A stretch of DNA of 64,000 nt, from NCBI GenBank assembly GCA_035526025.1, contig DATLDE010000011.1:49374-113373 (forward strand), given 5' to 3'. Under the pieces are notes generated by a model. The model saw only the letters and a program-made list of their open reading frames with translations, did not search any database and was not told where the DNA came from. Both the position numbers and the translations under genes were made by a program. The DNA is from Candidatus Limnocylindrales bacterium. GTDB lineage: Bacteria; Patescibacteriota; Microgenomatia; Levybacterales; UBA12049. Below are positions 10,101-25,830 of the stretch, piece after piece. The stretch's first letter is position 1, and every line of letters starts with the position of its first letter.

Positions 10101-10105
10101 ATATT

Positions 10106-11827
10106 CTATAATAATATTGTCTTTTCGTGGTTCCAGTCAAAATGCGTAGCATTTTGATAGAGGAGCAACCGACGAAAAGCCGCAATCCGAATGCAATGAG
10201 GATAAAGGCTGCAGTCGAGTTGTGACGAGCGGACGTGGTGAAATGGTAGACACGCAAGTTTTAGGAACTTGTGCTCAAAAGGCTTGGAGGTTCGAGTCCT
10301 CTCGTCCGCACACAACAGTACAGTCTCATCCTTAAACCCTCGAATAGCCTGATATAACGGGCTAATCTTATGATTCAATGTACCATTATAGCTCCAAGCT
10401 AATCCTTCAGGGAACATTGAACCAAGCAGTACCTTAGCCTGACTTTGATTTGATCTTTTGTAAGCTTCCCCAAGATCTGCTAAGAGTGTCTTTATAAAAG
10501 ACGTAACTTTATCAATATTGTAATTCTCCATCGTTGCGTCATCTTTACTGATCAAAACTTGAGTAATTTGGTTTTCAATAGTTGCGTTTTGCTCCTTAAA
10601 GATTTCATCAGAATATACACCTGAAAGGTTTTTCTCAACTAACTGTTTTCTAAGAGCTTTAAGCCTCACTATCTCATCATCAGCATTATTTTTAATCTTA
10701 AGTAGCCTTGAATATCTTGCATGGTATGTCTTGTAAAGACAGGTTATGAAAAGATTAAGGCATTCTGTTTTGGGAGTAACTTCTTTGAGTAAATTTATCA
10801 GGACATTATCAAGATCATTTGTTTTAATTGATTTACTATTGCAGGGTTTACCACAGCGGTAATATTGATATTTAATGTGTCGCCCCTTACTCCATGCACC
10901 AGTTAAGCCAAATCCGCATTTTGAACACTTTATAATCCGTCTTAGCGGAAAATCAGGGTTAATGTGATTCCTTTTGGCTAAAGCCACTTTATTTGGGTTC
11001 CGACCGTCCAGAATGGCCTGTACCTTATAGAATTGCTCCTCTGTGATCATTGGTACATATTGTCCTTTTACTTCCTCATTGTATGTGTTTGAGGACAGAA
11101 TTCCCATATAAAACTTATTTCTAAAAAGTTCATTTACTCTCTGGCGAAGCAGGGGATACTCTTTTTGTTTACGCATATGCCTCAAGCCCCAGTCATTCAT
11201 AATTTCAGCCATCTCAGAAAGGCTCTTAGTGCCTGTCGCCATAAGATCCCATGCTTTTCTCATACTATCCCAAGCTTTTGGATCTTTTACCGCATAACCT
11301 GTCTGAACCATATAACCAAGAGGCACAGAGCCTGTAACGATCATTCCTGACAAAAACCGTGCTCTAAGCCCATTTCGTGACCTTTCTGAGCGGATATCAT
11401 TATCAAGTTGTGCAAAGCCAGCAAGAATTGTCTCAACCAGCTTTTCTGTTGGACTTTCTCCAGTTGGCTCGGAAATTGAAACAACATTTGCTCCGTATTC
11501 AGCAAGTTTTTTCCTTATACTTAAATAATCAGCAGTTATTCTTGAAATCCTATCTATTCTATAGACAAATACAGCTTGAACCCTATTCTTGTTTTTCCGG
11601 CAATACTCAAGTAGATTAATCAGAACAGGTCTTCCGGTTATGTTTTTAGCAGAACGCCCCTCTTCTCTAAATATTTCAATCACGTCATAGCCTCTTTTCT
11701 CCGCTTCTTTTCTGCACATACCCTCTTGGGTATCCAGGGAGAAGTTATCAACCTGCTCCTCAGTTGATACCCGAATGTAGATTACTGCTCTTTTCCCATC
11801 AGCATAAATTGCTTTTTGCGGTCTCAT
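10106..11827 (-). CDS. large serine recombinase (resolvase/invertase N-domain + recombinase domain + zinc ribbon)
   Basis: N-terminus AVIYIRVSTEEQ carries the catalytic Ser. Zinc ribbon: CSKCGFGLTGAWSKGRHIKYQYYRCGKPC. 573 aa. The last roughly 70 codons run antisense through tRNA-Leu(TAG) and beyond. The true C-terminus is uncertain. Confidence 0.8.
   Translation of the reverse strand: MRPQKAIYADGKRAVIYIRVSTEEQVDNFSLDTQEGMCRKEAEKRGYDVIEIFREEGRSAKNITGRPVLINLLEYCRKNKNRVQAVFVYRIDRISRITADYLSIRKKLAEYGANVVSISEPTGESPTEKLVETILAGFAQLDNDIRSERSRNGLRARFLSGMIVTGSVPLGYMVQTGYAVKDPKAWDSMRKAWDLMATGTKSLSEMAEIMNDWGLRHMRKQKEYPLLRQRVNELFRNKFYMGILSSNTYNEEVKGQYVPMITEEQFYKVQAILDGRNPNKVALAKRNHINPDFPLRRIIKCSKCGFGLTGAWSKGRHIKYQYYRCGKPCNSKSIKTNDLDNVLINLLKEVTPKTECLNLFITCLYKTYHARYSRLLKIKNNADDEIVRLKALRKQLVEKNLSGVYSDEIFKEQNATIENQITQVLISKDDATMENYNIDKVTSFIKTLLADLGEAYKRSNQSQAKVLLGSMFPEGLAWSYNGTLNHKISPLYQAIRGFKDETVLLCADERTRTSKPFEHKFLKLACLPFHHVRSSQLDCSLYPHCIRIAAFRRLLLYQNATHFDWNHEKTILL
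10229..10310 (+). tRNA. tRNA-Leu (anticodon TAG)
   Basis: GCGGACGTGGTGAAATGGTAGACACGCAAGTTTTAGGAACTTGTGCTCAAAAGGCTTGGAGGTTCGAGTCCTCTCGTCCGCA. Long variable arm. Confidence 0.8.
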
Positions 11828-12213
11828 AGGCCTCCTTTCTCATGAAGCAACTCATTTAAAGTTTTTCCTTCAAATATTTCTCGCTCAAAATCATCAAGCC
11901 AACTTTCAGCTAGGAATTGGACTTTTGTTACCGTATCTTTTAACTCATTTTCGCTAAATTGAGTAGCCATAGGACCTAACGCCTTTTTTGCCTCTTGAAT
12001 AATTTTTCCGTCATATTCTTGCTCCGGGAATAAATCATCCAAGGATTGTTTAAGTGATTGAGAAATTGGCTTGGGCGCAGAGACAGGTAGGGATTCATCT
12101 AAAACTTGTGCTAAAGGAGTAATTATCTTTTCTTGAGAAAGTGGCAACTGTTGAACTGCTGCATTCATATTTGGTCTATCAACATTGTCAATTTTCAAAG
12201 CTAAACTAGTCAT
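11824..12213 (-). CDS. hypothetical acidic protein, overlaps the recombinase start (ATGA)
   Basis: 129-aa ORF translationally coupled to the recombinase. Confidence 0.45.
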   Translation of the reverse strand: MTSLALKIDNVDRPNMNAAVQQLPLSQEKIITPLAQVLDESLPVSAPKPISQSLKQSLDDLFPEQEYDGKIIQEAKKALGPMATQFSENELKDTVTKVQFLAESWLDDFEREIFEGKTLNELLHEKGGL

Positions 12214-12454
12214 ATATGATTAGTATATAACTATATATGCCTAGTTGTCAATCGCCAAATTATTTGCTCTTATTAAGAGCTTTTAAGTGCTTTTACAATG
12301 CTTCTTTTAGGGGTCTTACCCCTCTAATGCAAGGGTAAAATGCACTCCTCATTCTTCGTCGCCCTTGCATTATTCACCCTGCTTATGACTTTCAGTCAGG
12401 TAGTCGGGCATGGGCATGCCCGACAAAAACAATTATGAGAAAGGAGGTGAGAAT

Positions 12455-12790
12455 ATGGAATTATTAACAGTAGAGCTTAAAGAGAAACTTCCAGCTCTTT
12501 ATGCTCAAGAGAAAGAGAGAGATCCATTGGTGTATATTAAATTCTTTGATCCAACCGGATCATGGACATGGTATGCAACTGAAGGTGAGGAGGCAGATGA
12601 TGACTTTCTTTTCTTTGGGTATGTTGTAGGACACGATTCAGAGCTTGGGTATTTTACTCTTAGCCAGCTGAGGAGTGCTAAAAAAGGCGTGAGCGGTATT
12701 TTGAGCTTACCAATAGAACGTGATCTATATTTCAAGCCATGCAGGCTTTCTGAGGTAAAAGGATTAAATCAGTCCATGTGTAAGTTTTAG
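12455..12790 (+). CDS. DUF2958 family protein (plasmid/ICE-associated)
   Basis: KFFDPTGSWTWYATEGEE...FGYVVGHDSELGYFTLSQL...ERDLYF matches my memory of the DUF2958 signature. Start taken at the ATG preceded by GAAAGGAGGTGAG. Track ORF is 12410..12790. Confidence 0.6.
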   Translation: MELLTVELKEKLPALYAQEKERDPLVYIKFFDPTGSWTWYATEGEEADDDFLFFGYVVGHDSELGYFTLSQLRSAKKGVSGILSLPIERDLYFKPCRLSEVKGLNQSMCKF

Positions 12791-12837
12791 TGATAGTGGG
12801 GTGCTGACAAAGTGCCCCACTATTCTAATATGCTAGA

Positions 12838-13629
12838 TTATTTTATACTTTCCCAAATACTTCCAGTTACGCCATTTGCTATTACATCCTCAGCTGTTGC
12901 GAACATGATTGATAACTCATCAGTGTTATCTTCCTCAAGTATTCTTTTAGTATAGCGTTTTGCATAAATCATCCTTTCCTTTGTTCCTCCGACAAAAAAT
13001 ATCATGGGAAAAGGTGAATTTATGTGGTTTTCCCACTCATTACTGTAGTAAAAATCTTTGTATGCGCGTATTCGTTTTCGTATTCTGTAATATGGAAGTT
13101 TCTCATCAAAAATAGTCAGTAGGAAGTATTGTATTTTTTTGCCCTTTTCTTTTTTAGAAAAACATATATCAACCGACAGATCAGAGTTTTTTAAAAATTT
13201 AAAGTCACTATCTTCATTACAGATATCGCTTTCGGTTGAATATGTGCGAGTTACGGTATCATTGTTTTTCCTCTCAAGCTCGCAGCAAATTCTAGAGATA
13301 AGTAAACAGTGTTGAATAAAGCTATCAGAGCGGGTCTTATCCCAGTAGAGTTTATGAATAAAATTTGTGTCATATTTTCCTTTTGCTTTTATATATCTTA
13401 TCCCGTTATTATCCAATGTATAGATTGCCGATATTCTGTTTTTCCCAATGATCGTATTGTCATATATTCTTTTGATGTATTTCTTCTCTGTTAGGTCTTT
13501 TAACCAGTTATTTATTCTTGCCTCGTCTTTGTGATTGAGGAGGGATTGGATATGTTGTCTGTTGAGGAATCTGTATCGTGGAATTAGTGTTGTTATTTCT
13601 TGTTGTTTGTTAGTTATGTTAGGTATCAT
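12838..13629 (-). CDS. replication-relaxation (Replic_Relax) family-like protein
   Basis: 263 aa. N-terminal wHTH-like region (LIPRYRFLNRQHIQSLL...WLKDLTEKKYIKRIY). Family call is tentative. Confidence 0.4.
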   Translation of the reverse strand: MIPNITNKQQEITTLIPRYRFLNRQHIQSLLNHKDEARINNWLKDLTEKKYIKRIYDNTIIGKNRISAIYTLDNNGIRYIKAKGKYDTNFIHKLYWDKTRSDSFIQHCLLISRICCELERKNNDTVTRTYSTESDICNEDSDFKFLKNSDLSVDICFSKKEKGKKIQYFLLTIFDEKLPYYRIRKRIRAYKDFYYSNEWENHINSPFPMIFFVGGTKERMIYAKRYTKRILEEDNTDELSIMFATAEDVIANGVTGSIWESIK

Positions 13630-13788
13630 TATGTTTGTTTTTTTTGTATATATTTATTTTTTACTTTTATTATTTATGCCATGCCCAACCGTATTAATAT
13701 ACTCCGTTATTTTTAAGGGTAGGTGTCACAATTCTATTGCATATTAGCTTCAAATTAGCTTAAAAATTGTCGTTAACATCAACGACAA

Positions 13789-16548
13789 TTAAATATATTG
13801 TTGTTTTATAGTTTTTATTCCTTTTTTAACCCCGTTTGTTTTTACTGTGAGCTTACTTGCTTCTAGCAATTGCTTATCTTTTTTTTCAGAGTCTGTTTTC
13901 TTTGTGTTTCCTTTTGTAGGTACTGCTTTGAACAATTTTTCCAGTTGCTTTTCAACATCTGCTTTTGGAGTCGCATAGTGTGCCCTTGAATTCTCAATAA
14001 TCTTTTTTGCTGTTTTGTCACTCCCTTGTTCTGTTACGGGTAACGTAACGCCTGAAAATGCATCTTCTGAATGCTCATTGGTCACTTTCATATAGAAGTG
14101 GTGTGGCGCAAGATTAACTATTGCCCCTTTTTCTACTTCCGGCTCAAGGAAGGGTAGAAGGATTTTTTCATCATCAGGTCCGTTTTTAAGAGCAATTAAG
14201 TTTCCACTATTACTTAAAACTATCTTTGATAATTTTGGATCTTCAATTTGGGCAATATTTTGATGAGACGGCGTGAAGTAAACATGATACTTTCTTGCTT
14301 CTGAAAAAAGATCAGTAAAATGCGCACTTGCAAAGTTTTGAAATTCATCGATATAAACATAGAAATGAGATCTATCTTTTTCCGGTATTGCGGCTCTGGC
14401 ATATACAGCCAGTTGGATAAGGGAAAGTATTAGCGTGCCAAAGAACGCACTCCGCTCTTCTCCAAGCTTCCCTTTTGAGAGATTTACCAGAAGAATTTTA
14501 CCCTTATCCATTATTGCTGAAATGTTAATTGTTGTATTTTTCTGAAGTAAGATATTTCTTGACAATTTATCTGTCATAAATTCACCCAGTTTGTTGGTCA
14601 AGGGGGAGGCAGCATCTGCCTGCTGAATTTTGCCATATGAGCTATACTCTTTTTCCCAGAATTGCTTTAATACAGGATCAGTAAGAGTTTGAGTAACAGT
14701 TCTTCTATAGTCCTTATCAGTTAACAGTTTTTGAATTGCCATTAAAGAAATGTATGGAGTCTCAGGAGTCGGAGTATGTACCTGGAGTGCAGTAAGCGTG
14801 GCATTTCTGAGGATATGCTCCATTTTCTGACCCCAATGCTTCTCTGGTGTTATTTTCATAAATACAGCCATTAATGACCTGGCAATGAAACCATGCTCCT
14901 CATCAATATCTGAGAATTTTATATCTGGGGAGAGTATATTAAGTCCCAATGGAAAATCTTTATCAGAAGGATTAATTAGGACTACATCTTTCAATCTGTG
15001 TTTGGGGATAAGAGTCAGTAAATGCTCAATCAAATCCCCATGAGGATCAAGAATTGCAATCCCTTTCCCATTTTGAATGTCTTGTAGTGCCATACCTTCA
15101 ATAATGGTTGTTTTACCCATACCTGTTTTACCGACAATGTACGTGTGCTCCTTTTTATTCTTATCAGTTAACCCTACTTCAGTTTTTTCTCCACCATAAT
15201 TATTTGTACCAACTACAACGTCAAACTGCGTTGCTGTTTTTTTAAATGAATGAGGAGCAGGTAGTTCCTTACTTTTGCTTTTAACCATATCCTCAGTTTT
15301 GGTTGTTTGAGTGTAAGGCAAGTGATAGATGCTTGAGAGTTCTGTAACTGATAAGAAAATTGTATGGGAAAAAGAAAGGAGCCTGTTACCAAGTTGGTAG
15401 ACAGAAAAGAGTAAAATATATTGTTTTATTCTTTTAGGAATGAATGATGAAAAAACTGTGTGACGCGGAATAATTGCCTGATACTGGGCATTATCAAATG
15501 TTGAAAGTGTTGCCTGGAACCCCCTTATCCTCTCCCTAACAATATTCGAGTTATTTCCAATAACAAGAAGTCGCATGCTTGTTTCAAACACAGGAAGTTG
15601 TAACTTATCCTGTACCTGCTGAAACAATACTTGTTGAGTAGCTGTTGGGGTAAAGACTTTCTTGGGCTTTGCCTCATAATTATTACGTGGAGCTGGTTGG
15701 TTACTGCTACTTCTCAGTGCAATATCAGCAAAAAAACCAATAATTCCAACTAATAACCCAAGAGTCCAATAAATTAATTTACTAATTACATTAATTGGAA
15801 AAACAATGACTGAAAGCAATCTATTCTTTTGAATAATTGGTGAAATATCCTTATTGTGCCAGAGGTGATTTAGTAGCTTATCTGCCTCCTGTGTTTTTGC
15901 CCTATTACTTGCCTTGTCCATAGGAGAAAGGATTAATTGCAGGGAAATAAGCTCCTGTGGTGCAAGCTTTGTCATATTGCCTGTTAGGTATGCAATTGGA
16001 TCATGCTCTCTTAGTTTTGTTTGATCTGTTAGAGGGATAGCGAAGTGGTTTACTAAACGGAATGTTATTAACCGTATAGCTTTACTTGCTGTGAGAAAAT
16101 TTCTTATGCCTTCAAATGATCGCGGAAGATAATCAGCTACCTCCTCTATCTCAACACTTGGTAAGTATGAAAGAAGTGTTTTTCGTATAACTGGGGCATC
16201 AGATTTAGCTGTGTGAATAAGATAACGGATTCCTTCTTCTTTGGTTGCAACAAGCTCAACACTGATTGTTGTTTTGTCATGTATAAATCTTTGCCAGAAT
16301 GTTTTTCCTTTGATTAGCGAATGGAGTTGGGTAAATAACTGCTCTGTAGCATAGGAACTCTGGAGTGTTTGCTTGATTGGTTTAATTGAAAGAACAACAT
16401 GTGGGGTATTGAGTTTCCTTTTTAGCAGTAAATACCTGGAGAGGAGATAAACTATGAGCAAAGTAAATGCTACGCATGAGAGTAATATTAAGTACGCTGG
16501 AAGAACTGCCAGAAATGATATATATTGTGTTGGCATATGCAATATCAA
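13789..16548 (-). CDS. conjugative-transfer-type P-loop ATPase (TraG/TraD/VirD4 coupling-protein-like, or VirB4-like), membrane anchored
   Basis: N-terminal TM helices. Walker A YIVGKTGMGKTTIIEG near residue 480, followed by IAILDPHGDL. Walker B YVYIDEFQNF. Lys-rich C-terminal tail. Confidence 0.6.
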   Translation of the reverse strand: MILHMPTQYISFLAVLPAYLILLSCVAFTLLIVYLLSRYLLLKRKLNTPHVVLSIKPIKQTLQSSYATEQLFTQLHSLIKGKTFWQRFIHDKTTISVELVATKEEGIRYLIHTAKSDAPVIRKTLLSYLPSVEIEEVADYLPRSFEGIRNFLTASKAIRLITFRLVNHFAIPLTDQTKLREHDPIAYLTGNMTKLAPQELISLQLILSPMDKASNRAKTQEADKLLNHLWHNKDISPIIQKNRLLSVIVFPINVISKLIYWTLGLLVGIIGFFADIALRSSSNQPAPRNNYEAKPKKVFTPTATQQVLFQQVQDKLQLPVFETSMRLLVIGNNSNIVRERIRGFQATLSTFDNAQYQAIIPRHTVFSSFIPKRIKQYILLFSVYQLGNRLLSFSHTIFLSVTELSSIYHLPYTQTTKTEDMVKSKSKELPAPHSFKKTATQFDVVVGTNNYGGEKTEVGLTDKNKKEHTYIVGKTGMGKTTIIEGMALQDIQNGKGIAILDPHGDLIEHLLTLIPKHRLKDVVLINPSDKDFPLGLNILSPDIKFSDIDEEHGFIARSLMAVFMKITPEKHWGQKMEHILRNATLTALQVHTPTPETPYISLMAIQKLLTDKDYRRTVTQTLTDPVLKQFWEKEYSSYGKIQQADAASPLTNKLGEFMTDKLSRNILLQKNTTINISAIMDKGKILLVNLSKGKLGEERSAFFGTLILSLIQLAVYARAAIPEKDRSHFYVYIDEFQNFASAHFTDLFSEARKYHVYFTPSHQNIAQIEDPKLSKIVLSNSGNLIALKNGPDDEKILLPFLEPEVEKGAIVNLAPHHFYMKVTNEHSEDAFSGVTLPVTEQGSDKTAKKIIENSRAHYATPKADVEKQLEKLFKAVPTKGNTKKTDSEKKDKQLLEASKLTVKTNGVKKGIKTIKQQYI

Positions 16549-16719
16549 TAATTTTGAGGCAGTAGTCTAAAGCGGACAGAGGTTTTAGATGAAGCTGATG
16601 ATATCAGAAAAGGTTATTTAAGTACAGATGTCATACAATACCCAATAACCTGCTAAGAGACTTTTTTAATACTTGAAGTTTTAGAGCATGATGGGAAAAA
16701 AGACCAAAGCATCTTGGTT

Positions 16720-17655
16720 TTAAGCAGCAATCTTGTCATAGTAAAATAACTTTCCTCTTACGTCGTCAAAGCAGCGTTTCGAAGTTAGAGCTGATGGTAT
16801 ACCATTTGCATGCCCAGCTTGTTGATAAGCTTGCCATTCTTCAGGATCAAATCTGTCAACATATTCACTGGCATCTCTAGCAATAAAATAAACTGGTATC
16901 CCCGCAGCTAAAGCTGTAGTTCCTTTTAAAAATTCACGCCTATCCTTTAATGGTTCTTCTTTCTTGTTTATATAAGACACTGCAGCAATTTCAGCTGCTG
17001 CAGCTGCTGCTACGTATGGAGCTGTAGCTAAAGTTAATTTTTTCATACCGTATAATGCGGTTACAGCATTTCTAGTGTTTTCACCTCGTCTCCCACCTTG
17101 CACTACGTGATATAGCTCATGAAAAACTACTCCATTTAGTGCAGAATTCCAATGCGGAAGAATGTCTGGGGCTATTTCTAAAACTATTGGATCTTCAGGA
17201 TACATAGGGTGACGTACTGTGCCTGAAAATCCGCTATGTCCATCTCCGTTACCCCTATCTTCTTTACGCATTTGATTTATTTCTAGTCCGTATTTTTTAA
17301 CGTATGCAGATACTCTGTCTACCTCAGAGACTCCTCCGTCAAGATAGGATAAGTAAGTTAGGGCACGAGACATAGTATCCAAATTGACTGCGGGTTGGCT
17401 TGGACTTCCATCTGATCCTCCACCTATTACTATAACAGTGTCAAACTTTCCAGCTTTCATGTATTTTTTTATTTCCTCTGCCTTGGGCTTTAGAAGTTCA
17501 GCAGTTTGTGGAGATATATCATAATCAGGACCAAATGTTCGGTTTTCATAGGCTTTACTTCCCAGGACCCCCCCCAATACAGTAGCAACTCCCGCTTTTG
17601 CACCTAAACGTAAGAATCTTCTTCTGCCTATGCTTACAGGATCTCTTTCCGCCAT
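16720..17655 (-). CDS. Tat-signal secreted protein with HExxH zinc-peptidase-like motif
   Basis: N-terminal RRRFLRLGAKAGVATVLGG. FHELYHV is an HExxH motif. A second internal Tat-like motif, DRREFLKGTTALAAGIP, is also present. Confidence 0.45.
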   Translation of the reverse strand: MAERDPVSIGRRRFLRLGAKAGVATVLGGVLGSKAYENRTFGPDYDISPQTAELLKPKAEEIKKYMKAGKFDTVIVIGGGSDGSPSQPAVNLDTMSRALTYLSYLDGGVSEVDRVSAYVKKYGLEINQMRKEDRGNGDGHSGFSGTVRHPMYPEDPIVLEIAPDILPHWNSALNGVVFHELYHVVQGGRRGENTRNAVTALYGMKKLTLATAPYVAAAAAAEIAAVSYINKKEEPLKDRREFLKGTTALAAGIPVYFIARDASEYVDRFDPEEWQAYQQAGHANGIPSALTSKRCFDDVRGKLFYYDKIAA

Positions 17656-17870
17656 AATGCGGATTATATACCGTTCTAGGATAAATTTCTACACTATTTT
17701 GAGCAGGTTAATTCCCCACTAGAGAAAAAATATATCTAAGTCCATTTCTACAAAACTTAAAAATTTTTACATTAAACACTGTCATATTCAAAAATACATG
17801 AAAAAGTAAATAATTTTATTTTCCTATAGTACTTGTTTTTGCCATTTCAGGCTGCTAAAATAGGCAAATC

Positions 17871-18767
17871 ATGATGCAAGCCGAAAGAAGACCGAGCCGA
17901 TATGAGTTTGGTGATCTAAATAGAAGTCTTTTAAAGGATCTTCGCATTGTCCATTTGCCAGAAACCACCAGCACAATGGATTTAGTTGATGGATTAGCCA
18001 GATCATGGGCAAAAACAAAACGCGAATTCATACCCCCAGTTGTAATAATTGCGGATCATCAAACTGCAGGAATCGGCAGAGGAGATTTGGGAGAAGAAAA
18101 AAAGTGGCATGACATACCCGAGCTATCTATGCTTTTTAGCATTTTTATTCCAAAAGACAGAATAGAAGAAGAAAATCTACCCGAGTTATCAGATTTGGTT
18201 GCATTAAGAACATGCATGGCACTTAGAAAAGCAGGAGGAAATTTTCTTATAAAAGCCCCCAATGACATTGTTGACGCAGATACTGGTAAAAAGGTTAGCG
18301 GACTTCTTGTTAGATCGATTTATTCAGATGAAGGAGAATATTTGGGAGCAAATGTTGGAGTAGGTACAAATGTTCATTATAGAGATAATCAATTAGCTAA
18401 TTTTCCTGTGGAACCTGAATATGGAGCAATCTCAGTAGATAGCGCAACTGGTCAATTCAATAGTAGACAAGATTTATTGGTTGATATCTTAACTGGTATT
18501 TCCACAGTTGTTCCGGAAGCCGCCACTATCAATAAGGGAAGTGTTCATAACCCAACATCTGTTCATGCTATACAAAATGCCGAATGGAGAAGGCATTCAT
18601 ATTTACTAAATGAAAGGGTAGTAGTTAGAGAAGGTGAACAAGTCGTAGCCGAGGGAACAGTTGTTGACACAGAAATTGGTAACGGATTTATATTGAGATC
18701 AAATGATGGAATTGAGCATGCGGTACCGGTTTTTGGAACAGATACGAAGGTGAGGTTAGCTTCATGA
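17871..18767 (+). CDS. biotin--protein ligase (BirA-like; BPL catalytic domain + BPL_C-like C-terminus), paralog 1
   Basis: TSTMDLV...VVIIADHQTAGIGRGDLGEEKKWHD is a divergent BirA GRGRxGRxW block. The C-terminus VVVREGEQVVAEGTVVDTEIGNGFILRSNDGIEHAVPVFGTD is SH3-like as in BirA. Confidence 0.6.
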   Translation: MMQAERRPSRYEFGDLNRSLLKDLRIVHLPETTSTMDLVDGLARSWAKTKREFIPPVVIIADHQTAGIGRGDLGEEKKWHDIPELSMLFSIFIPKDRIEEENLPELSDLVALRTCMALRKAGGNFLIKAPNDIVDADTGKKVSGLLVRSIYSDEGEYLGANVGVGTNVHYRDNQLANFPVEPEYGAISVDSATGQFNSRQDLLVDILTGISTVVPEAATINKGSVHNPTSVHAIQNAEWRRHSYLLNERVVVREGEQVVAEGTVVDTEIGNGFILRSNDGIEHAVPVFGTDTKVRLAS

Positions 18768-19186
18768 TTGGTGAAGGATTTAGGAGATTACCCAGACCCG
18801 AAGGAGATGGCCATCCAACTAGAGAAGTACGGGGAAATGTTACTAGAAGTATCGAGCGTTTAAGGCCAGATTCCATAGCAGTTGAGTTAGTGCCACCTCA
18901 TGAGCTTATGCCATTTATTCTTCCTCCAAGTGCCGAAGGGGTAGTGCAAGCAATAGCGGCATTCGCAATCAGTGGAGAAACCCGTACTGCAGTTTGCGAA
19001 TTTGAAGATCGCAGAAACGATACGGTAACAAGAATTACTCTTGAAAATCCAACTGGTGATCCTTTCAACATGAGAATTACCCTTTCCAGTCCAGACAGAG
19101 AAGAAGGAGAAAAAGTACCACCCGGTATTGGCATTAAGGTTGTTGATAAAGAAGGAGCAACTCAAAAAGAGTTAGATAAAAAGTAA
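18764..19186 (+). CDS. hypothetical protein
   Basis: 140-aa ORF overlapping the ligase stop. No recognisable motif. Confidence 0.35.
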   Translation: MIGEGFRRLPRPEGDGHPTREVRGNVTRSIERLRPDSIAVELVPPHELMPFILPPSAEGVVQAIAAFAISGETRTAVCEFEDRRNDTVTRITLENPTGDPFNMRITLSSPDREEGEKVPPGIGIKVVDKEGATQKELDKK

Positions 19187-19263
19187 GACTTTGGAGACGG
19201 CTGAATCCTCGAGAAGATCCTCTTATTCAAGTTGGACAGACAGTTGAGCCTGGAGCTACTCTT

Positions 19264-19446
19264 ATGCTTGCAACAAGAGGCAAAAGTATCAAAAGAAGAA
19301 TAAAACTTCCAAGAGATAAATTTCCCAAGGGAGGTAAAGTTACTGCTATTTACGTTGACCCAGAGGACAACAATGAAGAACTCCGAAAAAAGGGTAAATT
19401 AGTTAATGGTGAATTTGTTCTTGCAGTTATAGATCCAGTTAAATAG
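19264..19446 (+). CDS. small ORF of uncertain status (possible fragment)
   Basis: 60-aa ORF. The frame is open about 78 nt upstream of the ATG without another start codon. KGGKVTAIYVD is KOW/hybrid-barrel-like. Confidence 0.25.
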   Translation: MLATRGKSIKRRIKLPRDKFPKGGKVTAIYVDPEDNNEELRKKGKLVNGEFVLAVIDPVK

Positions 19447-19449
19447 CCT

Positions 19450-22400
19450 ATGCCTGTATCCGTTAAAGAAAGATCAAGAACTCCAGAAGAAGGTGTCCGT
19501 CCGATTCGTAAAATGTTTATTGCAAACCGCGGTGAAATTGCTGTGCGTGCTGCAAAGGCATGTGAGAGAAGAGGGATTGCTGCTGTAATCCCATATTCTG
19601 ATCTTGAGTCCGAAAGAAATTCTTACGCAACTCGTTTTGTGGATAAGAACGCTAACAAAGGCTGGGAATTAGCAGCTATAGAGGGATATAGTGGCGACGA
19701 AACGTATGGAGATCCTAACGCAATACTACAAGAAGCAATTATACATAATTGTGACGCTATTTTTCTTGGATATGGATTTTTAGCAGAAAACGCTGATTTT
19801 GTTAAGCAAGTTGAGGATCATAATGAGGCAAGAAGAAGCCGAGGGGATGAACCTATTCGTTTACTTGCTCCTGATTCACGTGCCATGAGGCTTTTGGGAA
19901 ATAAAGCAAATGCTCGGGAGTTTGTAAACACTGTTAAAGTTGGCCTTGGAAGAAACAGAAGAACAGTGCCCATTGTTGAAGGATCTGATAAGCCTCGAAC
20001 CCAAATTGAAGAACTAATAAGGGATGTTGAGGGGGACGGAAAGAGCAAAGAAGGTATTGGATATCCTGTTATGGTAAAAGCTCCTGATGGAGGTGGTGGA
20101 ATGGGTAATATTGTAGCACGTACTCATGCTGAGCTTGATGCAGCATATAGGGATCTTCGCGGAACAGGAGAAGATCAAGGATTAATTGTTGAGCACTATA
20201 TAGAAAACGCAATTCATGTTGAGATGCAAGTTATTGCTGATCAACACGGTAACGTTGTGATTTTGGGTGAGCGTGATTGCACTCTTCAGAGAAGAAGTCA
20301 AAAACTGGTTGAAGAGTCCCCATCTCCACATATAAATGAACGGCAAAGGAAGAAAATAACTGAAGAATCTGCTGCAATTGTAAAAAAAGCAAAATATTCA
20401 GGACCGGTAACAATTGAAATGATCTTTGATAAAGACAGAGTTGATGAAGACGGGGATATGTGGCATGGTTTCATGGAAGCAAATACACGCTTGCAGGTAG
20501 AGCATGTTGTAACTGAAATTCAGACAGGAATAGATATTGTTGACACAATGATAGATGTTGCAGAAGGTCGTGAGTTAAAATTTAAACAAAAAGACATTAA
20601 GCCTCAAGGACATACTATGGAGCTTCGTGTTTACGCAGAAGATCCTGACCGTAATTTTGAACAACAAGAAGGAATTTTAAATGTATTAAGTCTTCCTGAA
20701 GATGTGGAGGGAGTAAGGATTGATAAAGGATATGAAGAAGGTGATGAAGTATCAGTAGAATACGACGGAACGATATTTAAAATAAATATACATGGCGTAA
20801 CAAGAGCTGACATGCTTGAGCGGACAAGTCAAGTAATTGCAATGTGTGAAATTGCTGGAGTTAAAAATAATCTTGCCTTTCTTGATGAGCTTATTAATAC
20901 ACCAGAATTTCAACGAGGAACAGTGAAAACGAAATTTGTCGAGGAATGGGTAGACCGTAGGCGAAAAGAGGCAAGAGACCAAATAATGAATGAGTTATTG
21001 GGCGAAAATGGAACATTTACTCCATTTCCCCCATCAAAACTTCGTGATAATTTTCCTGTAAATCCAACTTTTAAAACTTCTAACTCTGCTGAATCCACAA
21101 CGCTAGAGGAAAGCCTTGCGCGACAGAAAGAAAAAACAGGATTAGAAAGAGCGTCAGAATATGGAATTGTTGAAAGAGATGGAGTTAGGTACGTATTATA
21201 TCTATTAAATTCCAAATTTAATGCAGGAACATTTGGAAAAGAAGAAGGGTGGATGTTGACCGATGCAATTAAACTTGCACATAAGTACAATCTCCCATTA
21301 ATAACAGATACTTCAACAGCGGGTGTCAGAAACACTGAAGGATCATACGGAATAGATATGATGATGAACTCTACCAGCGATCTAAGTGAATATCCTCCAC
21401 TTTTTCATATTGACATACGGCATGGATACGTATTGGGTGGAGTTCCAGCCTCATATTCTGGAAGAGCCAATTTGTTTATGGCGGTTAATGATGACGCTAC
21501 CAAAATAGGAATAACTGGAGCAAATGCATTGGCTGCTGGAGAGGATTTGCATCCTACTGACTTAGAAGGTAAGTCAAGCACAAAAGCTGCTGACGCATAT
21601 AGAGCATTGAATGAAAACCAAGAAGACGAAGGCGCTCCAGTGCATACTCCCACCCGTCATCACGAGGAAAGAACTGGTGCTGATATGCTGCCAGCAAGTT
21701 TAACAGAAGCTGGGGCAAAGATTAGCCATATATTACAAATTCTAAAATTCACTCATCCCCACATCAGATCAGATCTAGATACACATGTCTTTAGTCCACA
21801 TGAGCAAATAGGATACGGACATATGCCTCACGCTGTTACTCTTTACGATTCAGGTGAACAACGACCCGGTTTTGTGCCCCCAACAATCAGCCGATTATGG
21901 GAAAGGTTTGCGAGTAATAGAGGAAAAGAAAAAATTATTTTTGCACCTGAAACTCCAGAAATCACAATCGGAGAGAGAAGAAGAATAGTAAAGCACCCCG
22001 ATAGACCTACAGGTCTTGACCTTGTTGATACTGGTTCCGAACTTTTTGATGATGCTGTATTTCTTGATCATGTAACTTTTGTCGATAATGTACACCAAGT
22101 TCTTCCCATTACCTCGGCCTTAGTTCGCTTTGGTGATCACCCAATTTTAGTGGTTACTCAAAATCGTCAAGAGAGAATCAATGACGCTGGAGAAAGAGAA
22201 ATATATTACAAACCAATTCGTCCTACTGATTGGGAAGCCACAAAACGTCATCTTCAATGGGCAGAAAATGTAGGTATCACAGTTATGCTAATGGGCGACA
22301 CTTCAGGAGCAGATTCAAGTAGGCAGGCTGAAGACCGGGGACAAGAAATTAAGCTCGCCGAAATATCGCAATTTGTTCAACAGCTAAAAGTGCCAGTAAT

Positions 22401-22875
22401 TACTAATCAATCTGGACTAGGGGGAAGTGGTAGTGTTCTTCCCTTTAGTTGGTATGGAGATTATGCAGCCATGTGGGAGAATGCCACAAGGTGGCCAGCC
22501 GATGCCCCAGCAATGAGAAGCTTTATTGAAGGAGTCTCTCTTCTTAAAGAATCAGACGCAACAGCAGAGGAGATAGCAGCACTTGATTTATTTGCAGCTC
22601 AATTTATCGATGTTACTGCTGAAGCGCATCTAGCAAAAGGTAGGATTGATAAAATACTTCTAGAAGGACCCGGAGGTGCGCATATAAACCCAAGAATAAT
22701 TGTTGATAGTAACAGGGAGATGTTGAGAGACGTGTTACCAAAATTACGACAAAGATATCTTGACGGCACTTTACTTGAAGAAAGAAGGAGAAGAAAAGAG
22801 CATGTTGCATTGATTGGCTCCAGACCAAATCCAGACTATGCAGCACAAGTTGCTGAATTAGAAGAAAGACTTTAA
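19450..22875 (+). CDS. biotin carboxylase - carboxyltransferase fusion protein (acyl-CoA carboxylase-like BC + PccB/AccD-like CT), no BCCP domain
   Basis: BC motifs MFIANRGEIAVRAAKACERRGI, GYPVMVKAPDGGGGMGNIVA, ERDCTLQRRSQKLVEESPSP, FMEANTRLQVEHVVTE. First CT subdomain PLITDTSTAGVRNTEG...GGVPASYSG. Second CT subdomain VPVITNQSGLGGSGSV. No (A/V)MKM biotinyl motif anywhere in the 1141 aa. Confidence 0.7.
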   Translation: MPVSVKERSRTPEEGVRPIRKMFIANRGEIAVRAAKACERRGIAAVIPYSDLESERNSYATRFVDKNANKGWELAAIEGYSGDETYGDPNAILQEAIIHNCDAIFLGYGFLAENADFVKQVEDHNEARRSRGDEPIRLLAPDSRAMRLLGNKANAREFVNTVKVGLGRNRRTVPIVEGSDKPRTQIEELIRDVEGDGKSKEGIGYPVMVKAPDGGGGMGNIVARTHAELDAAYRDLRGTGEDQGLIVEHYIENAIHVEMQVIADQHGNVVILGERDCTLQRRSQKLVEESPSPHINERQRKKITEESAAIVKKAKYSGPVTIEMIFDKDRVDEDGDMWHGFMEANTRLQVEHVVTEIQTGIDIVDTMIDVAEGRELKFKQKDIKPQGHTMELRVYAEDPDRNFEQQEGILNVLSLPEDVEGVRIDKGYEEGDEVSVEYDGTIFKINIHGVTRADMLERTSQVIAMCEIAGVKNNLAFLDELINTPEFQRGTVKTKFVEEWVDRRRKEARDQIMNELLGENGTFTPFPPSKLRDNFPVNPTFKTSNSAESTTLEESLARQKEKTGLERASEYGIVERDGVRYVLYLLNSKFNAGTFGKEEGWMLTDAIKLAHKYNLPLITDTSTAGVRNTEGSYGIDMMMNSTSDLSEYPPLFHIDIRHGYVLGGVPASYSGRANLFMAVNDDATKIGITGANALAAGEDLHPTDLEGKSSTKAADAYRALNENQEDEGAPVHTPTRHHEERTGADMLPASLTEAGAKISHILQILKFTHPHIRSDLDTHVFSPHEQIGYGHMPHAVTLYDSGEQRPGFVPPTISRLWERFASNRGKEKIIFAPETPEITIGERRRIVKHPDRPTGLDLVDTGSELFDDAVFLDHVTFVDNVHQVLPITSALVRFGDHPILVVTQNRQERINDAGEREIYYKPIRPTDWEATKRHLQWAENVGITVMLMGDTSGADSSRQAEDRGQEIKLAEISQFVQQLKVPVITNQSGLGGSGSVLPFSWYGDYAAMWENATRWPADAPAMRSFIEGVSLLKESDATAEEIAALDLFAAQFIDVTAEAHLAKGRIDKILLEGPGGAHINPRIIVDSNREMLRDVLPKLRQRYLDGTLLEERRRRKEHVALIGSRPNPDYAAQVAELEERL

Positions 22876-22877
22876 AT

Positions 22878-23726
22878 ATGAAAACAGAAGCTGCAATTAG
22901 TGTTCGACCTTATACCGAATATGATCAGAATAGAGTCAGATCTGCAGTGGGAGCATTGGGATACGATTTTCAATACCGTCAGATCACTGGAACCACCATG
23001 GATGATGCTCTGTCTTCGGAAAGACCTACTGTTTGGGTTGCTGATAGTCAAAGAAATGGCCGAGGAAGAACAGGAAATAGATGGGAAGACACATCAAAAG
23101 CAAATGTTCTGGTAACAGTTGCCGTCGACCGGATAAAACTTTCAAATCCTTTACTGCTTCCTCAGCTTGGTGCATTGGCTGCCTGCAGGGCTGCCAGAAC
23201 AGTTACAAAAAGTGATGCTCCTCAGATACGTTGGCCCTATGACCTAGAAATTGATGGTAAAAAGTTCGGGGGAGTATTGGTCGAACAAAAGGTTTCTGCA
23301 ACCGGAAAACCGTTAACCTTAATTGGCGTTGGAATGGATGTACATGATCAGTCTTTTCCTCAATTTCCTTGGGAAGCAGTAGCTCTTGAACAAGTACAAG
23401 GCATTGAATCAATAGATAGGAACGCACTATTAATTGAATTTACAAAAGAGTTAACTAGCCTGCTAGATATAATCGATATTGTTGATACTGATCCGCAAGC
23501 ATACGCAACATGGAACAACATTTGGATAGCTCATCAAAGCTTAGGAGGAAAACATGTTATAGCAGAGAATATCGGTCCAGATAAATTTGGGGACGTGGAG
23601 GGAATTGCAAGGGTACCTATGCTAGGAAGAGGGCTTGATTTAGTCACAACAGGTTTCGATGGATTGGAAAAAACTGTTACGGTTTCAAGCTGGAATCCCC
23701 TCTCTTTAATTAGAAACTTGGAATAA
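22878..23726 (+). CDS. biotin--protein ligase (BirA-like), paralog 2
   Basis: QRNGRGRTGNRWEDTSKANVLVTVAV matches the BirA signature GRGRxGRxW..G.xL. It has a C-terminal SH3-like domain. Its start lies 3 nt after the BC-CT stop. Confidence 0.65.
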   Translation: MKTEAAISVRPYTEYDQNRVRSAVGALGYDFQYRQITGTTMDDALSSERPTVWVADSQRNGRGRTGNRWEDTSKANVLVTVAVDRIKLSNPLLLPQLGALAACRAARTVTKSDAPQIRWPYDLEIDGKKFGGVLVEQKVSATGKPLTLIGVGMDVHDQSFPQFPWEAVALEQVQGIESIDRNALLIEFTKELTSLLDIIDIVDTDPQAYATWNNIWIAHQSLGGKHVIAENIGPDKFGDVEGIARVPMLGRGLDLVTTGFDGLEKTVTVSSWNPLSLIRNLE

Positions 23727-23730
23727 AAAT

Positions 23731-24360: not shown

Positions 24361-24418
24361 TATGGCAATAAATTTACATTTGCAGTAATAATTAAGACTA
24401 TGTTATAATGCAAATCTT

Positions 24419-24781
24419 ATGGGAGCTCCACAAGAAAGAAATTGCGAAGCGCTGATTACTTACACTACGGTTAGGAGAGGTCAAGCAAGGTATGAAATTC
24501 TTAAACCACCTGAGGGCATGGAATTAAATTCTACAGGAATGGTTGCGAACAGAGAAGTAATTAGTGGCATAGAAGAGGTTTGCATAAATTGTGGGAGATG
24601 TGGAATTGATAATGTAAAGCGCAGGTCATCAGATAATAAACATCCATGGTCTGCTGCTGTTGGCGCAGAAAGACTAGCGGCCCAAGTACTTGAAGACCAA
24701 TGTCAGCCTTTTCAACCCCTGAAGGAATTGGGATTAAAGCCAAATAAAGATTTCCATCCAATGCTTACTCATATAAAATAG
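24419..24781 (+). CDS. hypothetical protein with CxxCxxC cluster
   Basis: 120 aa. CINCGRCG. Confidence 0.3.
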   Translation: MGAPQERNCEALITYTTVRRGQARYEILKPPEGMELNSTGMVANREVISGIEEVCINCGRCGIDNVKRRSSDNKHPWSAAVGAERLAAQVLEDQCQPFQPLKELGLKPNKDFHPMLTHIK

Positions 24782-25827: not shown

Positions 25828-25830
25828 TAT

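What the first reader, a model, noticed from the sequence alone, without database searches (positions are those of the whole stretch)
10106..16575. Integrated mobile element at the 3' end of tRNA-Leu(TAG)
A block of genes typical of integrative mobilisable or conjugative elements lies immediately 3' of tRNA-Leu(TAG): a large serine recombinase (catalytic Ser, recombinase domain, zinc ribbon), a co-transcribed small ORF, DUF2958, a replication-relaxation-like protein, and a 919-aa TraG/TraD/VirD4-like ATPase. About 8 bp past the ATPase stop, 16559..16571 (GCGGACAGAGGTT) resembles the reverse complement of the tRNA 3' end (GCGGACGAGAGGA). This is a weak candidate for the other junction.
Basis: partly seen in the sequence, partly recalled or inferred. 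Interest (0 to 1): 0.75.

Follow-up and report, generated by a model that had tools for sequence, protein, structure and literature searches.

The report
tRNA-targeting serine-integrase mobile element in Patescibacteria
A 17.9-kb mobile DNA element, about three times longer than first thought, sits just after a leucine tRNA gene of an ultra-small (Patescibacteria) bacterium. It belongs to a large, apparently undescribed family whose serine integrases target tRNA gene ends, a target normally used by tyrosine integrases.

Summary
The gene block is real: a large serine recombinase, a coupled 129-aa ORF, DUF2958, a Replic_Relax (MOBC relaxase-type) protein and a VirD4-like coupling ATPase lie 3' of tRNA-Leu(TAG).

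The proposed far junction is wrong. The motif is at 16572-16584, not 16559-16571. It lies upstream of the start, not the stop, of the minus-strand ATPase, in a region conserved with a related element.

Two relatives (L081, L065) have tRNA-Leu(TAG) directly followed by the trigger-factor gene, which starts at 28259 in the window. The insertion is therefore 17,927 bp. It is flanked by the only two copies of TCCGCACAC in the window (10305-10313 and 28232-28240).

The distal end carries a tRNA-like arm whose T-loop motif lies 5 bp further out than in the tRNA. This is the known attP-versus-attB half-site offset of large serine integrases.

Of 65 related Patescibacteria loci with sequence beyond the recombinase, 60 have its ORF running antisense into a tRNA 3' end, and the stop codon usually lies in the T-loop. 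In the window no stop occurs there, so the ORF is 573 aa instead of about 511.

Best reading: an integrative mobilizable element of the serine integrase + MOBC + VirD4 type. It is a new variant of a known kind. Its mobility is inferred, not shown.

The parts
10229..10311 (+). tRNA-Leu(TAG), intact. Its 3' acceptor and T arm serve as the host (B) half of the attachment site.
   Evidence: ARAGORN; Rfam RF00005, 56.8 bits; acceptor stem GCGGACG/CGTCCGC.
10305..10313 (+). tRNA-proximal copy of the 9-bp core repeat TCCGCACAC: the last 5 nt of the acceptor stem, the discriminator A and 3 nt beyond. The crossover lies somewhere inside it.
   Evidence: The repeat occurs exactly twice in the 64-kb window, against 0.16 expected.
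10106..11827 (-). Large serine recombinase gene, 573 aa as integrated. The element-encoded part is 10314-11827. The last ~62 codons (10106-10312) are host DNA, read antisense through the tRNA and its upstream region.
   Evidence: Pfam; NCBIfam XisF/Ccr-like below cut-offs; translation; homologues have a modal length of 511 aa and end in antisense-tRNA peptides.
11824..12213 (-). 129-aa ORF translationally coupled to the recombinase and conserved in nearly all family members. It is all-alpha with no known fold. It is a candidate accessory or directionality factor (inference only).
   Evidence: AF2 mean pLDDT 72; no Foldseek PDB match at E<=0.001.
12222..12251 (-). Promoter-like site (TTGACA-18-TATACT, 11 of 12 matches) just upstream of the 129-aa ORF and recombinase operon.
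   Evidence: This is a consensus match only.
12410..12790 (+). DUF2958 protein, 126 aa.
   Evidence: Pfam E=3e-12; present in many related elements.
12838..13629 (-). Replic_Relax (PF13814) protein, 263 aa. This is the MOBC relaxase superfamily.
   Evidence: Pfam 33.2 bits against a cut-off of 25.3; PF13814 is equated with MOBC in PMC5357655; PD-(D/E)XK fold assignment in PMC3424549.
13789..16548 (-). VirD4/TraD-like type IV coupling ATPase. The probable ATG is at 16536. It has two N-terminal transmembrane segments, Walker A GKTGMGKT and Walker B YVYIDEF.
   Evidence: Pfam; NCBIfam weak CD1115/TraD/CedD hits; TrwB in PDB at E=0.006; sequence inspection.
16553..16629 (.). Upstream region of the coupling-ATPase gene, 87% identical to that of L081. 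It marks the end of the conserved backbone, not a junction.
16720..25548 (.). Variable cargo: 311-aa ORF (-), BPL/LplA-like 298 aa, 140-aa ORF, 1141-aa biotin carboxylase plus carboxyltransferase fusion, BPL-like 282 aa, and ORFs of 209 aa, 120 aa and 237 aa (-).
   Evidence: Pfam; NCBIfam; absent from the 82 related loci.
25624..25827 (+). Xre-type HTH regulator, 67 aa. Homologues occur in 18 other elements of the family, on the strand opposite the recombinase in 17 of them.
   Evidence: Pfam HTH_3 E=7e-16; tblastn; L082 nucleotide match.
26187..27212 (-). Fic domain plus MerR HTH protein, 341 aa (cargo).
   Evidence: Pfam.
27387..28124 (+). RelB-type antitoxin (domain in residues 66-130 of ORF 27387-27845) and YafQ/ParE-type toxin (27846-28124). 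This addiction module sits at the distal end.
   Evidence: Pfam.
28205..28240 (+). Distal junction. It comprises the element's P' arm (GGTTCAAAATAAATACTATCCTCCGCACAC) and the second copy of TCCGCACAC (28232-28240). On the other strand it reads GTGC-N19-GAACC, whereas the tRNA reads GTGC-N14-GAACC.
   Evidence: dyad TCCGC/GCGGA.
28241..29089 (+). Host flank: the original tRNA trailer (ACCAGCGGAAAAATATAAAT) and the trigger-factor gene (28259-29089). In L081 and L065 this gene directly follows tRNA-Leu(TAG).

Best explanation
Window 10314-28240 is one 17.9-kb integrative mobilizable element of a Patescibacteria (Microgenomates-type) chromosome.

**Integration (inferred).** The element's large serine recombinase recombined an element site (attP) with a chromosomal site (attB). 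The left half of attB is the acceptor/T-arm end of tRNA-Leu(TAG). The crossover fell within TCCGCACAC, at or next to the discriminator base. The tRNA gene therefore stays intact and no long repeat is made.

**Site recognition (inferred).** The element's distal arm copies the tRNA's GCGGA...TYGAACC motifs, but with the T-loop-like motif 5 bp further from the crossover. Large serine integrases use exactly this offset to tell attP from attB through the zinc-ribbon domain.

**Consequence for the recombinase gene (shown).** The other attP arm lies inside the 3' end of the recombinase gene, so integration swaps the last codons. Integrated, the ORF runs into host DNA and gives 573 aa here. In most relatives it gives about 511 aa, because the T-loop TTCAA reads TGA on the antisense strand. 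The excised form is predicted to give 539 aa.

**Transfer (inferred).** The MOBC-type relaxase and the VirD4-like coupling protein would hand the excised element to a type IV secretion system encoded elsewhere in the genome. An Xre regulator, the coupled 129-aa ORF and a RelB/YafQ module would control and stabilise the element.

**Shown:** gene content, empty sites in relatives, the 9-bp repeat, the +5 motif, and family-wide abutment to tRNA genes. **Inferred:** the crossover position, excision, transfer, and the roles of the small ORFs.
For: 1. **Domains:** one search covers the backbone proteins. Searches cover the cargo and refine the families.
2. **Empty sites:**
   - L081 comes from a closely related host. 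Its tRNA-Leu(gag) is 98.9% identical and the body of its tRNA-Leu(tag) 98.5% identical to the window's. Its recombinase is 92% identical.
   - In L081 the element sits in tRNA-Leu(gag), and tRNA-Leu(tag) is followed about 12 bp later by tig.
   - L065, a complete 1.6-Mb chromosome, shows the same tRNA-tig adjacency.
   - Conversely, the window's own tRNA-Leu(gag) site is empty, and its similarity to the occupied L081 site stops exactly at ...CCGCAC.
3. **Repeat:** TCCGCACAC occurs only at 10305-10313 and 28232-28240, 20 nt upstream of the tig ATG, where synteny predicts the junction.
4. **P' arm test:**
   - Across 64 loci, a tRNA-end core followed by GAAC occurs upstream of the recombinase 5 times at a shift of +5 and 4 times at a shift of 0. 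It occurs at most once at any other shift, and once in total in the reverse-complement control.
   - The same +5 spacing is seen in attP-like junctions in L005, L055 and L077.
   - The 5-bp rule is established for LI/A118-type integrases (PMC3783163).
5. **Family:** 60 of 65 related loci with at least 100 nt beyond the recombinase have a convergent tRNA abutting it. The tRNA type tracks recombinase similarity: Leu for the closest, then Gly, Glu, Ser and others.
6. **Distal region belongs to the element:** Xre homologues lie in 18 other elements, on the strand opposite the recombinase in 17 of them.
7. **Known architecture:** streptococcal IME class 8 combines a serine integrase, a PF13814/MOBC relaxase and a VirD4 coupling protein (PMC5357655).
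8. **Available secretion system:** Patescibacteria carry chromosomal T4SS genes, and most of their thousands of VirD4 homologues lie far from virB4 (PMC12102498).
Against: - No excised circle or same-species empty allele was found. The metagenome scan for attB and attP junctions gave only chance hits.
- The 11.6-kb distal part shares no genes with the 82 related loci, except the Xre gene and a 65-aa ORF. L081's backbone similarity stops at 16629. A two-step origin is therefore not excluded.
- The 9-bp repeat alone is weak evidence. About 0.7 chance 9-mers per 10 kb are expected in the unrestricted search.
- The P arm inside the recombinase gene shows only a loose mirror of the motif.
- No oriT and no directionality factor were identified.
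- The 62-aa host-encoded tail could impair this particular recombinase.
- No T4SS genes lie in the window.
Confidence: 0.72

Rival explanations
1. Composite origin. A ~6.3-kb element (10314-16629) and an 11.6-kb segment (16630-28240) arrived separately. For example, the distal segment could be the decayed remnant of an earlier element of the same family that kept its P' end, with the present backbone acquired by recombination or accretion.
For: - Backbone similarity with L081 ends at 16629, and the DNA beyond differs completely in the two elements.
- Several family members are only 6-11 kb long.
- L074 carries a 16-nt tRNA fragment 134 nt from its P' site, and L029 has a second ATPase gene downstream of the recombinase. 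These are hints that accretion occurs in this family.
Against: - No att-like core, tRNA fragment or P'-type arm lies near 16.6 kb.
- A serine-integrase attL or attR is not a substrate for a second integration.
- Variable cargo next to a conserved backbone is normal for mobile elements.
Confidence: 0.15
2. One reading: a 6.5-kb element ending about 16575, with GCGGACAGAGGTT as a relic of the second junction.
For: All recognisable mobility genes lie within 10.1-16.6 kb.
Against: - The motif is mislocated, needs a gap and is inverted.
- It lies in a stretch conserved with L081's ATPase upstream region.
- Host synteny resumes only at 28259.
- The P'-type arm is at 28.2 kb.
Confidence: 0.05
3. An immobile relic or domesticated locus. 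The recombinase and its neighbours are fixed host genes that merely sit next to tRNAs, or this copy is dead because of its 62-aa read-through tail.
For: - No excised form was observed.
- The recombinase C-terminus is abnormal here, at 573 aa against about 511 aa.
Against: - Reciprocal empty and occupied sites occur in close relatives.
- Near-identical recombinase 3' ends occur next to different tRNA-Leu genes in MAGs named as different Patescibacteria lineages.
- All five backbone ORFs are intact.
- 15 of 80 public contigs or loci stop within 100 nt of the junction or inside the recombinase gene. This is as expected for a polymorphic site.
Confidence: 0.06

Closest known systems
Streptococcal IME class 8 (serine integrase + Rel_PF13814/MOBC relaxase + VirD4 coupling protein; Coluzzi et al. 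2017, PMC5357655)
   Same: It has the same three signature proteins in a compact module, with the integrase at one end facing outward. It has no VirB4 and so depends on a helper T4SS.
   Different: The host is Patescibacteria, not Firmicutes. In that collection of 16 serine-integrase IMEs, two are in intergenic regions of undetermined specificity and the other 14 are inside genes; none is reported at a tRNA. Here the target is a tRNA gene end and the gene is preserved. The sequences are very distant.
Large serine integrases of phages (A118/LI, Bxb1, phiC31)
   Same: The domain architecture matches: Resolvase, Recombinase, and a zinc ribbon with Cys301/304/325/329. attL and attR share only a short core. 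A distal motif lies 5 bp further from the centre in attP than in attB (PMC3783163).
   Different: The known examples named above target protein-coding genes (from memory), as do the streptococcal serine-integrase IMEs (PMC5704250). Here the B arm is a tRNA acceptor/T arm, one attP arm lies inside the integrase coding sequence, and the stop codon is supplied by the host. The motif sits about 3 bp further out than in LI.
tRNA-integrating genomic islands with tyrosine integrases (Islander type, PMC4383910)
   Same: The target is the 3' end of a tRNA gene, the tRNA is kept intact, and the integrase gene is adjacent to the tRNA.
   Different: The recombinase family and chemistry are different. There is no displaced tRNA fragment of tens of bp; only 9 bp are repeated.
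phiRSM filamentous phage, whose small resolvase-like serine recombinase integrates at a tRNA-Ser gene (reference cited in PMC7192596; the target site is recalled from memory)
   Same: A serine recombinase acts at a tRNA gene end.
   Different: It is a small serine recombinase without the recombinase and zinc-ribbon domains, and the element is a phage, not a mobilizable element.

Membership tests
Large serine recombinase (serine integrase) | N-terminal resolvase catalytic domain with the nucleophilic serine | tested here: met
   PF00239 E=8e-32, residues 14-161. The motif YIRVSTEEQ is at residues 16-24.
Large serine recombinase (serine integrase) | Recombinase domain followed by a zinc-ribbon domain | tested here: met
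   PF07508 and PF13408 score above their cut-offs. The cysteines are at 301, 304, 325 and 329.
Large serine recombinase (serine integrase) | attP and attB differ, share only a short core, and have the distal motif shifted 5 bp | tested here: met
   A 9-bp core is shared. The +5 shift is seen in the window and in 4 other loci, with none at neighbouring shifts. This is a computational result only.
Large serine recombinase (serine integrase) | Catalyses attP x attB integration; excision needs a directionality factor | not testable with these tools
   The 129-aa coupled ORF is a candidate factor but has no recognisable fold.
Integrative mobilizable element (IME) | Own integration module, bounded insertion, empty site in relatives | tested here: met
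Integrative mobilizable element (IME) | Relaxase and/or coupling protein but no complete mating-pore (VirB4) genes | tested here: met
   The element has PF13814 and VirD4-like proteins. No VirB4-type protein lies between 10.3 and 28.2 kb.
Integrative mobilizable element (IME) | oriT and demonstrated mobilisation | not testable with these tools
   No oriT was recognised. The 16553-16629 palindrome is conserved only with L081.
Integrative conjugative element (ICE) | Self-encoded T4SS including VirB4 | tested here: not met
   No such genes lie in the element.
MOBC relaxase (Replic_Relax, PF13814) | Match to the family profile above its curated threshold | tested here: met
   33.2 bits against a cut-off of 25.3, covering profile positions 3-182 of 191.
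MOBC relaxase (Replic_Relax, PF13814) | PD-(D/E)XK catalytic residues and nicking at oriT | not tested
   The residues were not mapped. The activity is experimental.
VirD4/TraD type IV coupling protein | N-terminal membrane anchor plus Walker A/B nucleotide-binding domain with TrwB-like and TraG-D_C regions | tested here: met
   Pfam hits score above their cut-offs. Two hydrophobic segments and the GKTGMGKT and YVYIDEF motifs are present. All NCBIfam equivalog models score far below their cut-offs, so it belongs to no named subfamily.
Islander-type tRNA island (tyrosine integrase) | Tyrosine integrase, and a displaced tRNA fragment as a long direct repeat | tested here: not met
   The recombinase is of the serine type. 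No second copy of the tRNA 3' end lies within the inserted DNA; the only other match within 3 mismatches is the separate tRNA-Leu(gag) gene.
Prophage | Virion or packaging genes | tested here: not met
   Pfam found none. Only 2 relatives of the recombinase are in IMG/VR.

The most novel reading that the evidence does not exclude
This may be the type example of a very large Patescibacteria-wide family of elements: more than 1000 recombinase homologues at E<=1e-10.

1. A large serine integrase has evolved to read the universal tRNA acceptor/T-arm as its attB half-site, with attP mimicking a tRNA end at a 5-bp offset.
2. The integrase C-terminus and stop codon switch with integration state, because attP lies inside the gene.
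3. The divergent MOBC relaxase plus VirD4 pair would account for many of the unexplained VirD4 homologues of Patescibacteria that lie far from virB4. If so, their chromosomal T4SS, reported as essential in a Saccharibacteria model and thought to be co-opted away from conjugation, would still move DNA between cells.
Probability: 0.3. Interest if true: 0.75.

Novelty: new variant of a known kind. Interest (0 to 1): 0.6.

Why it matters
tRNA gene ends are the classic target of tyrosine integrases. The serine-integrase elements described in the papers consulted usually insert inside protein-coding genes and break them (PMC5704250, PMC4383910).

A whole family of large serine integrases that uses tRNA ends would widen the known target range of these enzymes. 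It would also show the zinc-ribbon offset rule in a natural attP/attB pair. Large serine integrases are major genome-engineering tools. These ones could offer ready-made landing sites in organisms that are very hard to manipulate genetically.

[quoted passage not shown] This element family is a concrete candidate for that missing piece, and the idea can be tested.

For annotation, the case shows that recombinase lengths in this family are artefacts of the host tRNA sequence, and that MAG contigs tend to break at these junctions.

Tried and rejected
- **Long att repeats.** I looked for a long direct repeat of the tRNA 3' end (22-mer with up to 3 mismatches, plus general repeat finding). None lies within the insertion.
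- **Left ends of the L006/L007/L011/L014 clade.** I tried to define them from where nucleotide similarity starts. The CTTGCTCA strings nearby turned out to lie in unrelated coding sequences, so no junction could be called there.
- **P' arms from attP-like junctions.** BLAST of the candidates from L005, L029, L044, L055 and L077 against all loci gave nothing useful.
- **Metagenome scan.** One degenerate pattern covered attB, attP, attL and attR of this element. It gave 55 hits, all chance matches in unrelated DNA. No same-species empty site or circle was obtained.
- **Exact-protein look-up.** The flanking 182-aa protein gave only one short contig, with the same arrangement and no DNA.
- **The 129-aa ORF.** Pfam and NCBIfam gave nothing. 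The AF2 model (pLDDT 72) has no Foldseek match in the PDB, so its role as a directionality factor remains a guess.
- **Inverted three-gene block.** I looked for inverted repeats flanking it (12.2-12.4 kb against 16.5-16.7 kb). None of 9 nt or more exists.
- **The 16553-16629 motifs.** I checked whether they are family-wide, as a possible oriT. They are shared only with L081.
- **Chimeric tRNA.** I considered that the tRNA-Leu(TAG) acceptor stem was supplied by the element. I rejected this because L082, L065 and L013 have similar GCGG-type stems, and L081 is the odd one out.
- **Prophage.** Rejected, because there are no virion genes and the family is nearly absent from IMG/VR.
Full report
**1. 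What is at the stated coordinates**

ARAGORN and Rfam both call an intact tRNA-Leu(TAG) at 10229-10311 on the plus strand.
- ORF 10106-11827 (-) has Resolvase (E=8e-32), Recombinase and Zn_ribbon_recom domains.
- ORF 12410-12790 (+) is DUF2958.
- ORF 12838-13629 (-) is Replic_Relax.
- ORF 13789-16548 (-) has TrwB_AAD_bind, DUF87 and TraG-D_C.
- A 129-aa ORF (11824-12213, -) overlaps the recombinase start by 4 nt.

Three details of the observation are wrong.
- The string GCGGACAGAGGTT is at 16572-16584, not 16559-16571.
- The ATPase is on the minus strand, so this string lies upstream of its start, not after its stop. The probable ATG is at 16536.
- The resemblance to the tRNA end is inverted and needs a gap. 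An ungapped search does not recover it.

**2.

The recombinase ORF does not end before the tRNA. It reads antisense through the entire tRNA gene and 120 nt beyond. Residues 506-533 are antisense tRNA (…CADERTRTSKPFEH…), and the protein is 573 aa long.

A database search found more than 1000 homologues with a modal length of 511 aa. Nearly all of the 60 C-termini inspected end in …S[C/S/G]A[D/E]ER[T/S] or …GAGDGTRTRD…. These peptides are translations of antisense tRNA acceptor and T arms.

**3. The family**

I fetched 80 related loci from species-representative genomes. All plausibly come from Patescibacteria MAGs (Daviesbacteria, Levybacteria, Woesebacteria, Gottesmanbacteria and others), although many records carry other taxon names.

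Of the 65 loci with at least 100 nt beyond the recombinase, 60 have a convergent tRNA gene whose 3' end abuts the recombinase. The recombinase stop codon usually lies in the tRNA; in most of the closest, tRNA-Leu loci it is 20 nt into the gene, where the T-loop TTCAA reads TGA on the antisense strand. In the window the T-loop is TTCGA, so there is no stop and the ORF runs on for 62 codons.

The tRNA type tracks recombinase similarity:
- Leu, with any anticodon, for the closest relatives (69-80% identity).
- Gly and Glu next.
- Ser, Lys, His, Phe, Asp, Asn, Pro and Gln for more distant relatives.

Fifteen of the 80 contigs or loci stop within 100 nt of the junction or inside the recombinase gene, which is what a polymorphic site would cause.

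The conserved module is DUF2958, Replic_Relax, the coupling ATPase, the 129-aa ORF and the recombinase. The first three genes are inverted as a block in the window, L013 and L081 compared with most other loci.

**4. True extent of the insertion**

L081 carries a recombinase 92% identical to the window's. Its host is closely related: tRNA-Leu(gag) is 98.9% identical and the body of tRNA-Leu(tag) is 98.5% identical. In L081 the element sits in tRNA-Leu(gag), and tRNA-Leu(tag) is followed about 12 bp later by the trigger-factor gene.

L065, a complete 1.6-Mb chromosome, shows the same order. Two peptidoglycan-hydrolase-like paralogues are followed by tRNA-Leu(tag) and then tig, about 90 bp downstream of the tRNA.

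In the window tig starts at 28259. So 17.9 kb is inserted, not 6.5 kb. Conversely, the window's tRNA-Leu(gag) site is empty, and its similarity to the occupied L081 site stops exactly after …CGTCCGCAC.

The nonamer TCCGCACAC occurs exactly twice in the 64-kb window, both times on the plus strand: at 10305-10313 and at 28232-28240. About 0.16 occurrences are expected by chance. The second copy lies 20 nt upstream of the tig ATG, where synteny places the junction. The inserted DNA is 17,927 bp.

**5. The distal arm looks like a serine-integrase attP half-site**

Read on the recombinase strand:
- The tRNA end is GTGCGGACGAGAGGACTCGAACC.
- The distal end is GTGCGGAGGATAGTATTTATTTTGAACC.

Both share the same core, and both carry a T-loop-like motif, but in the distal arm it lies 5 bp further out.

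I tested this across 64 loci. I searched upstream of each recombinase for the first 6 nt of its own antisense tRNA followed by GAAC at every offset from -8 to +14 relative to the tRNA spacing.
- Five hits fall at +5 (the window, L020, L024, L039 and L074).
- Four hits fall at 0.
- At most one hit falls at any other offset.
- The reverse-complement control gives one hit in total.

L075, and the attP-like junctions of L005, L055 and L077, show the same +5 spacing.

Rutherford et al. showed that in LI/A118-type integrases the zinc-ribbon motif lies 5 bp nearer the centre in attB than in attP (PMC3783163). The geometry found here matches that rule, with the motif about 3 bp further out overall.

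The crossover cannot be fixed by sequence alone. It lies within the 9-bp identity. The gag/tag comparison suggests it lies at or before the AC formed by the discriminator and the next base (10310-10311). This is inference.

Because one attP arm lies within the recombinase coding sequence, the predicted excised form encodes 539 aa ending …CAEDSIYFEP…, against 573 aa when integrated.

**6. Does 16.6-28.2 kb belong to the element?**

Nucleotide similarity to L081 ends at 16629. It is therefore backbone, not a junction.

Beyond it lie the following genes:
- a 311-aa ORF;
- two BPL/LplA-like proteins;
- a 1141-aa biotin carboxylase and carboxyltransferase fusion;
- several ORFs with no family match;
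- an Xre HTH protein (25624-25827);
- a Fic/MerR protein;
- a RelB/YafQ toxin-antitoxin pair that ends 108 nt before the distal core.

The Xre protein has homologues in 18 other elements of the family, on the strand opposite the recombinase in 17 of them. In several they lie next to the 129-aa ORF or next to the P' end. L082 has a 76% identical copy just upstream of its recombinase operon.

No att-like core or tRNA fragment lies near 16.6 kb. I therefore favour a single 17.9-kb element with variable cargo. A two-step (accretion) origin remains possible, at about 15%.

**7. How it probably moves**

PF13814 (Replic_Relax) is the MOBC relaxase superfamily, which has a PD-(D/E)XK nuclease fold (PMC5357655, PMC3424549).

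The 919-aa ATPase has two N-terminal membrane segments and Walker A and B motifs. It gives weak matches to VirD4-like CD1115, TraD, CedD and TrwB. It is a divergent type IV coupling protein.

The element has no VirB4 or other pore genes, so it is an IME rather than an ICE. The same trio of serine integrase, MOBC relaxase and VirD4 defines streptococcal IME class 8.

Patescibacteria commonly carry a chromosomal T4SS. A survey of them found 5,713 VirD4 homologues, of which only 148 are encoded near virB4. It found only 109 relaxase homologues, with MOBC the commonest class (PMC12102498). Mobilisation of this element through that resident system is a reasonable inference, but it is untested.

The 129-aa ORF is conserved and translationally coupled to the recombinase. 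It is predicted to be all-alpha and has no fold relative. Its role as a directionality factor is a guess.

**8. Comparison and novelty**

In the literature consulted, serine-integrase IMEs insert within protein-coding genes and disrupt them, whereas tRNA 3' ends are the domain of tyrosine integrases (PMC5704250, PMC4383910). Text searches combining serine recombinase or integrase, tRNA and Patescibacteria or candidate phyla radiation found no description of this family. The library searched is incomplete.

I therefore rate the finding a new variant of a known kind. The enzymology and the IME architecture are known. The target class, the host phylum, the att-in-gene arrangement with a host-supplied stop codon, and the tRNA-mimicking attP arm are new.

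**9. Limits**

- No excised circle or same-species empty allele was obtained. The metagenome scan returned only chance hits.
- The crossover position, excision, transfer and the roles of the small ORFs are all inferred.
- The +5 rule rests on five distal sites plus a few attP-like junctions.
- The flanks of the related loci were limited to 10 kb, so most distal ends were out of reach.

Noticed in passing
window 12410-16548, compared with L003-L080: The DUF2958, Replic_Relax and ATPase block is inverted relative to the 129-aa ORF and recombinase operon in the window, L013 and L081, compared with most family members. No flanking inverted repeat of 9 nt or more was found.
   Followed up: partly
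window 6286-10311; L012, L013, L065, L081: Three tRNA-Leu genes (gag, cag, tag) surround two paralogous peptidoglycan-hydrolase-like genes, and this arrangement is conserved across relatives. Each tRNA-Leu is the occupied site in a different genome: cag in L012, gag in L013, L065 and L081, and tag in the window. The cluster is an integration hot spot.
   Followed up: partly
L081 13740-13824, compared with window 10229-10311: The empty tRNA-Leu(tag) of L081 has a body 98.5% identical to the window's but a different acceptor stem (GGGCCGG instead of GCGGACG, with compensatory changes) and an encoded CCA. In L081 the element sits in tRNA-Leu(gag), which has the GCGGACG stem. The altered stem may make the tag site refractory to integration.
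   Followed up: partly
window 17871-23726: The cargo encodes a 1141-aa fusion of biotin carboxylase with carboxyltransferase alpha- and beta-like regions. It is flanked by two BPL/LplA-family ligase paralogues and a 140-aa ORF. No biotin-carrier domain was detected. This is unusual metabolic cargo for a reduced-genome bacterium.
   Followed up: no
window 7392-8426 and 26187-27212: There are two Fic-domain proteins with C-terminal HTH regions. One lies in the host flank between tRNA-Leu genes and one in the element cargo (Fic + MerR). L013 has a Fic-like gene inside its element.
   Followed up: no
L074 4958-4973 and 5092-5121; L029 12623-13747: L074 has a 16-nt exact copy of its tRNA-Glu 3' end 134 nt from the P'-type arm. 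L029 has a second coupling-ATPase gene just downstream of its recombinase, with no tRNA between them. Both suggest tandem or accreted elements in this family.
   Followed up: no
L009, L016, L022, L026, L027, L032, L034, L036, L043, L054, L055, L061, L072, L076, L079: Fifteen of the 80 public contigs or loci stop within 100 nt of the recombinase-tRNA junction or inside the recombinase gene. Assemblies appear to break systematically at this site.
   Followed up: partly
titles of L002, L004, L009, L016-L080; P0121: Many MAGs that carry this Patescibacteria-type element are labelled Gammaproteobacteria, Pseudomonadales, Nanoarchaeota, Clostridiales, Anaerolineae, Sulfotelmatobacter or Limnocylindrales. 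These labels probably reflect mislabelling or mis-binning.
   Followed up: no
window 28229-28250: The distal junction forms a perfect 5-bp dyad, TCCGC-N6-GCGGA. The terminator scan picks it up as a hairpin directly upstream of tig. The reconstructed empty attB would have the same dyad, made from the tRNA acceptor strand and its trailer.
   Followed up: partly
window 57012-58142: This protein has an N-terminal prepilin-type methylation motif and a bacterial Ig-like domain. It sits in a minus-strand gene cluster and may belong to a type IV pilus or pseudopilus system.
   Followed up: no
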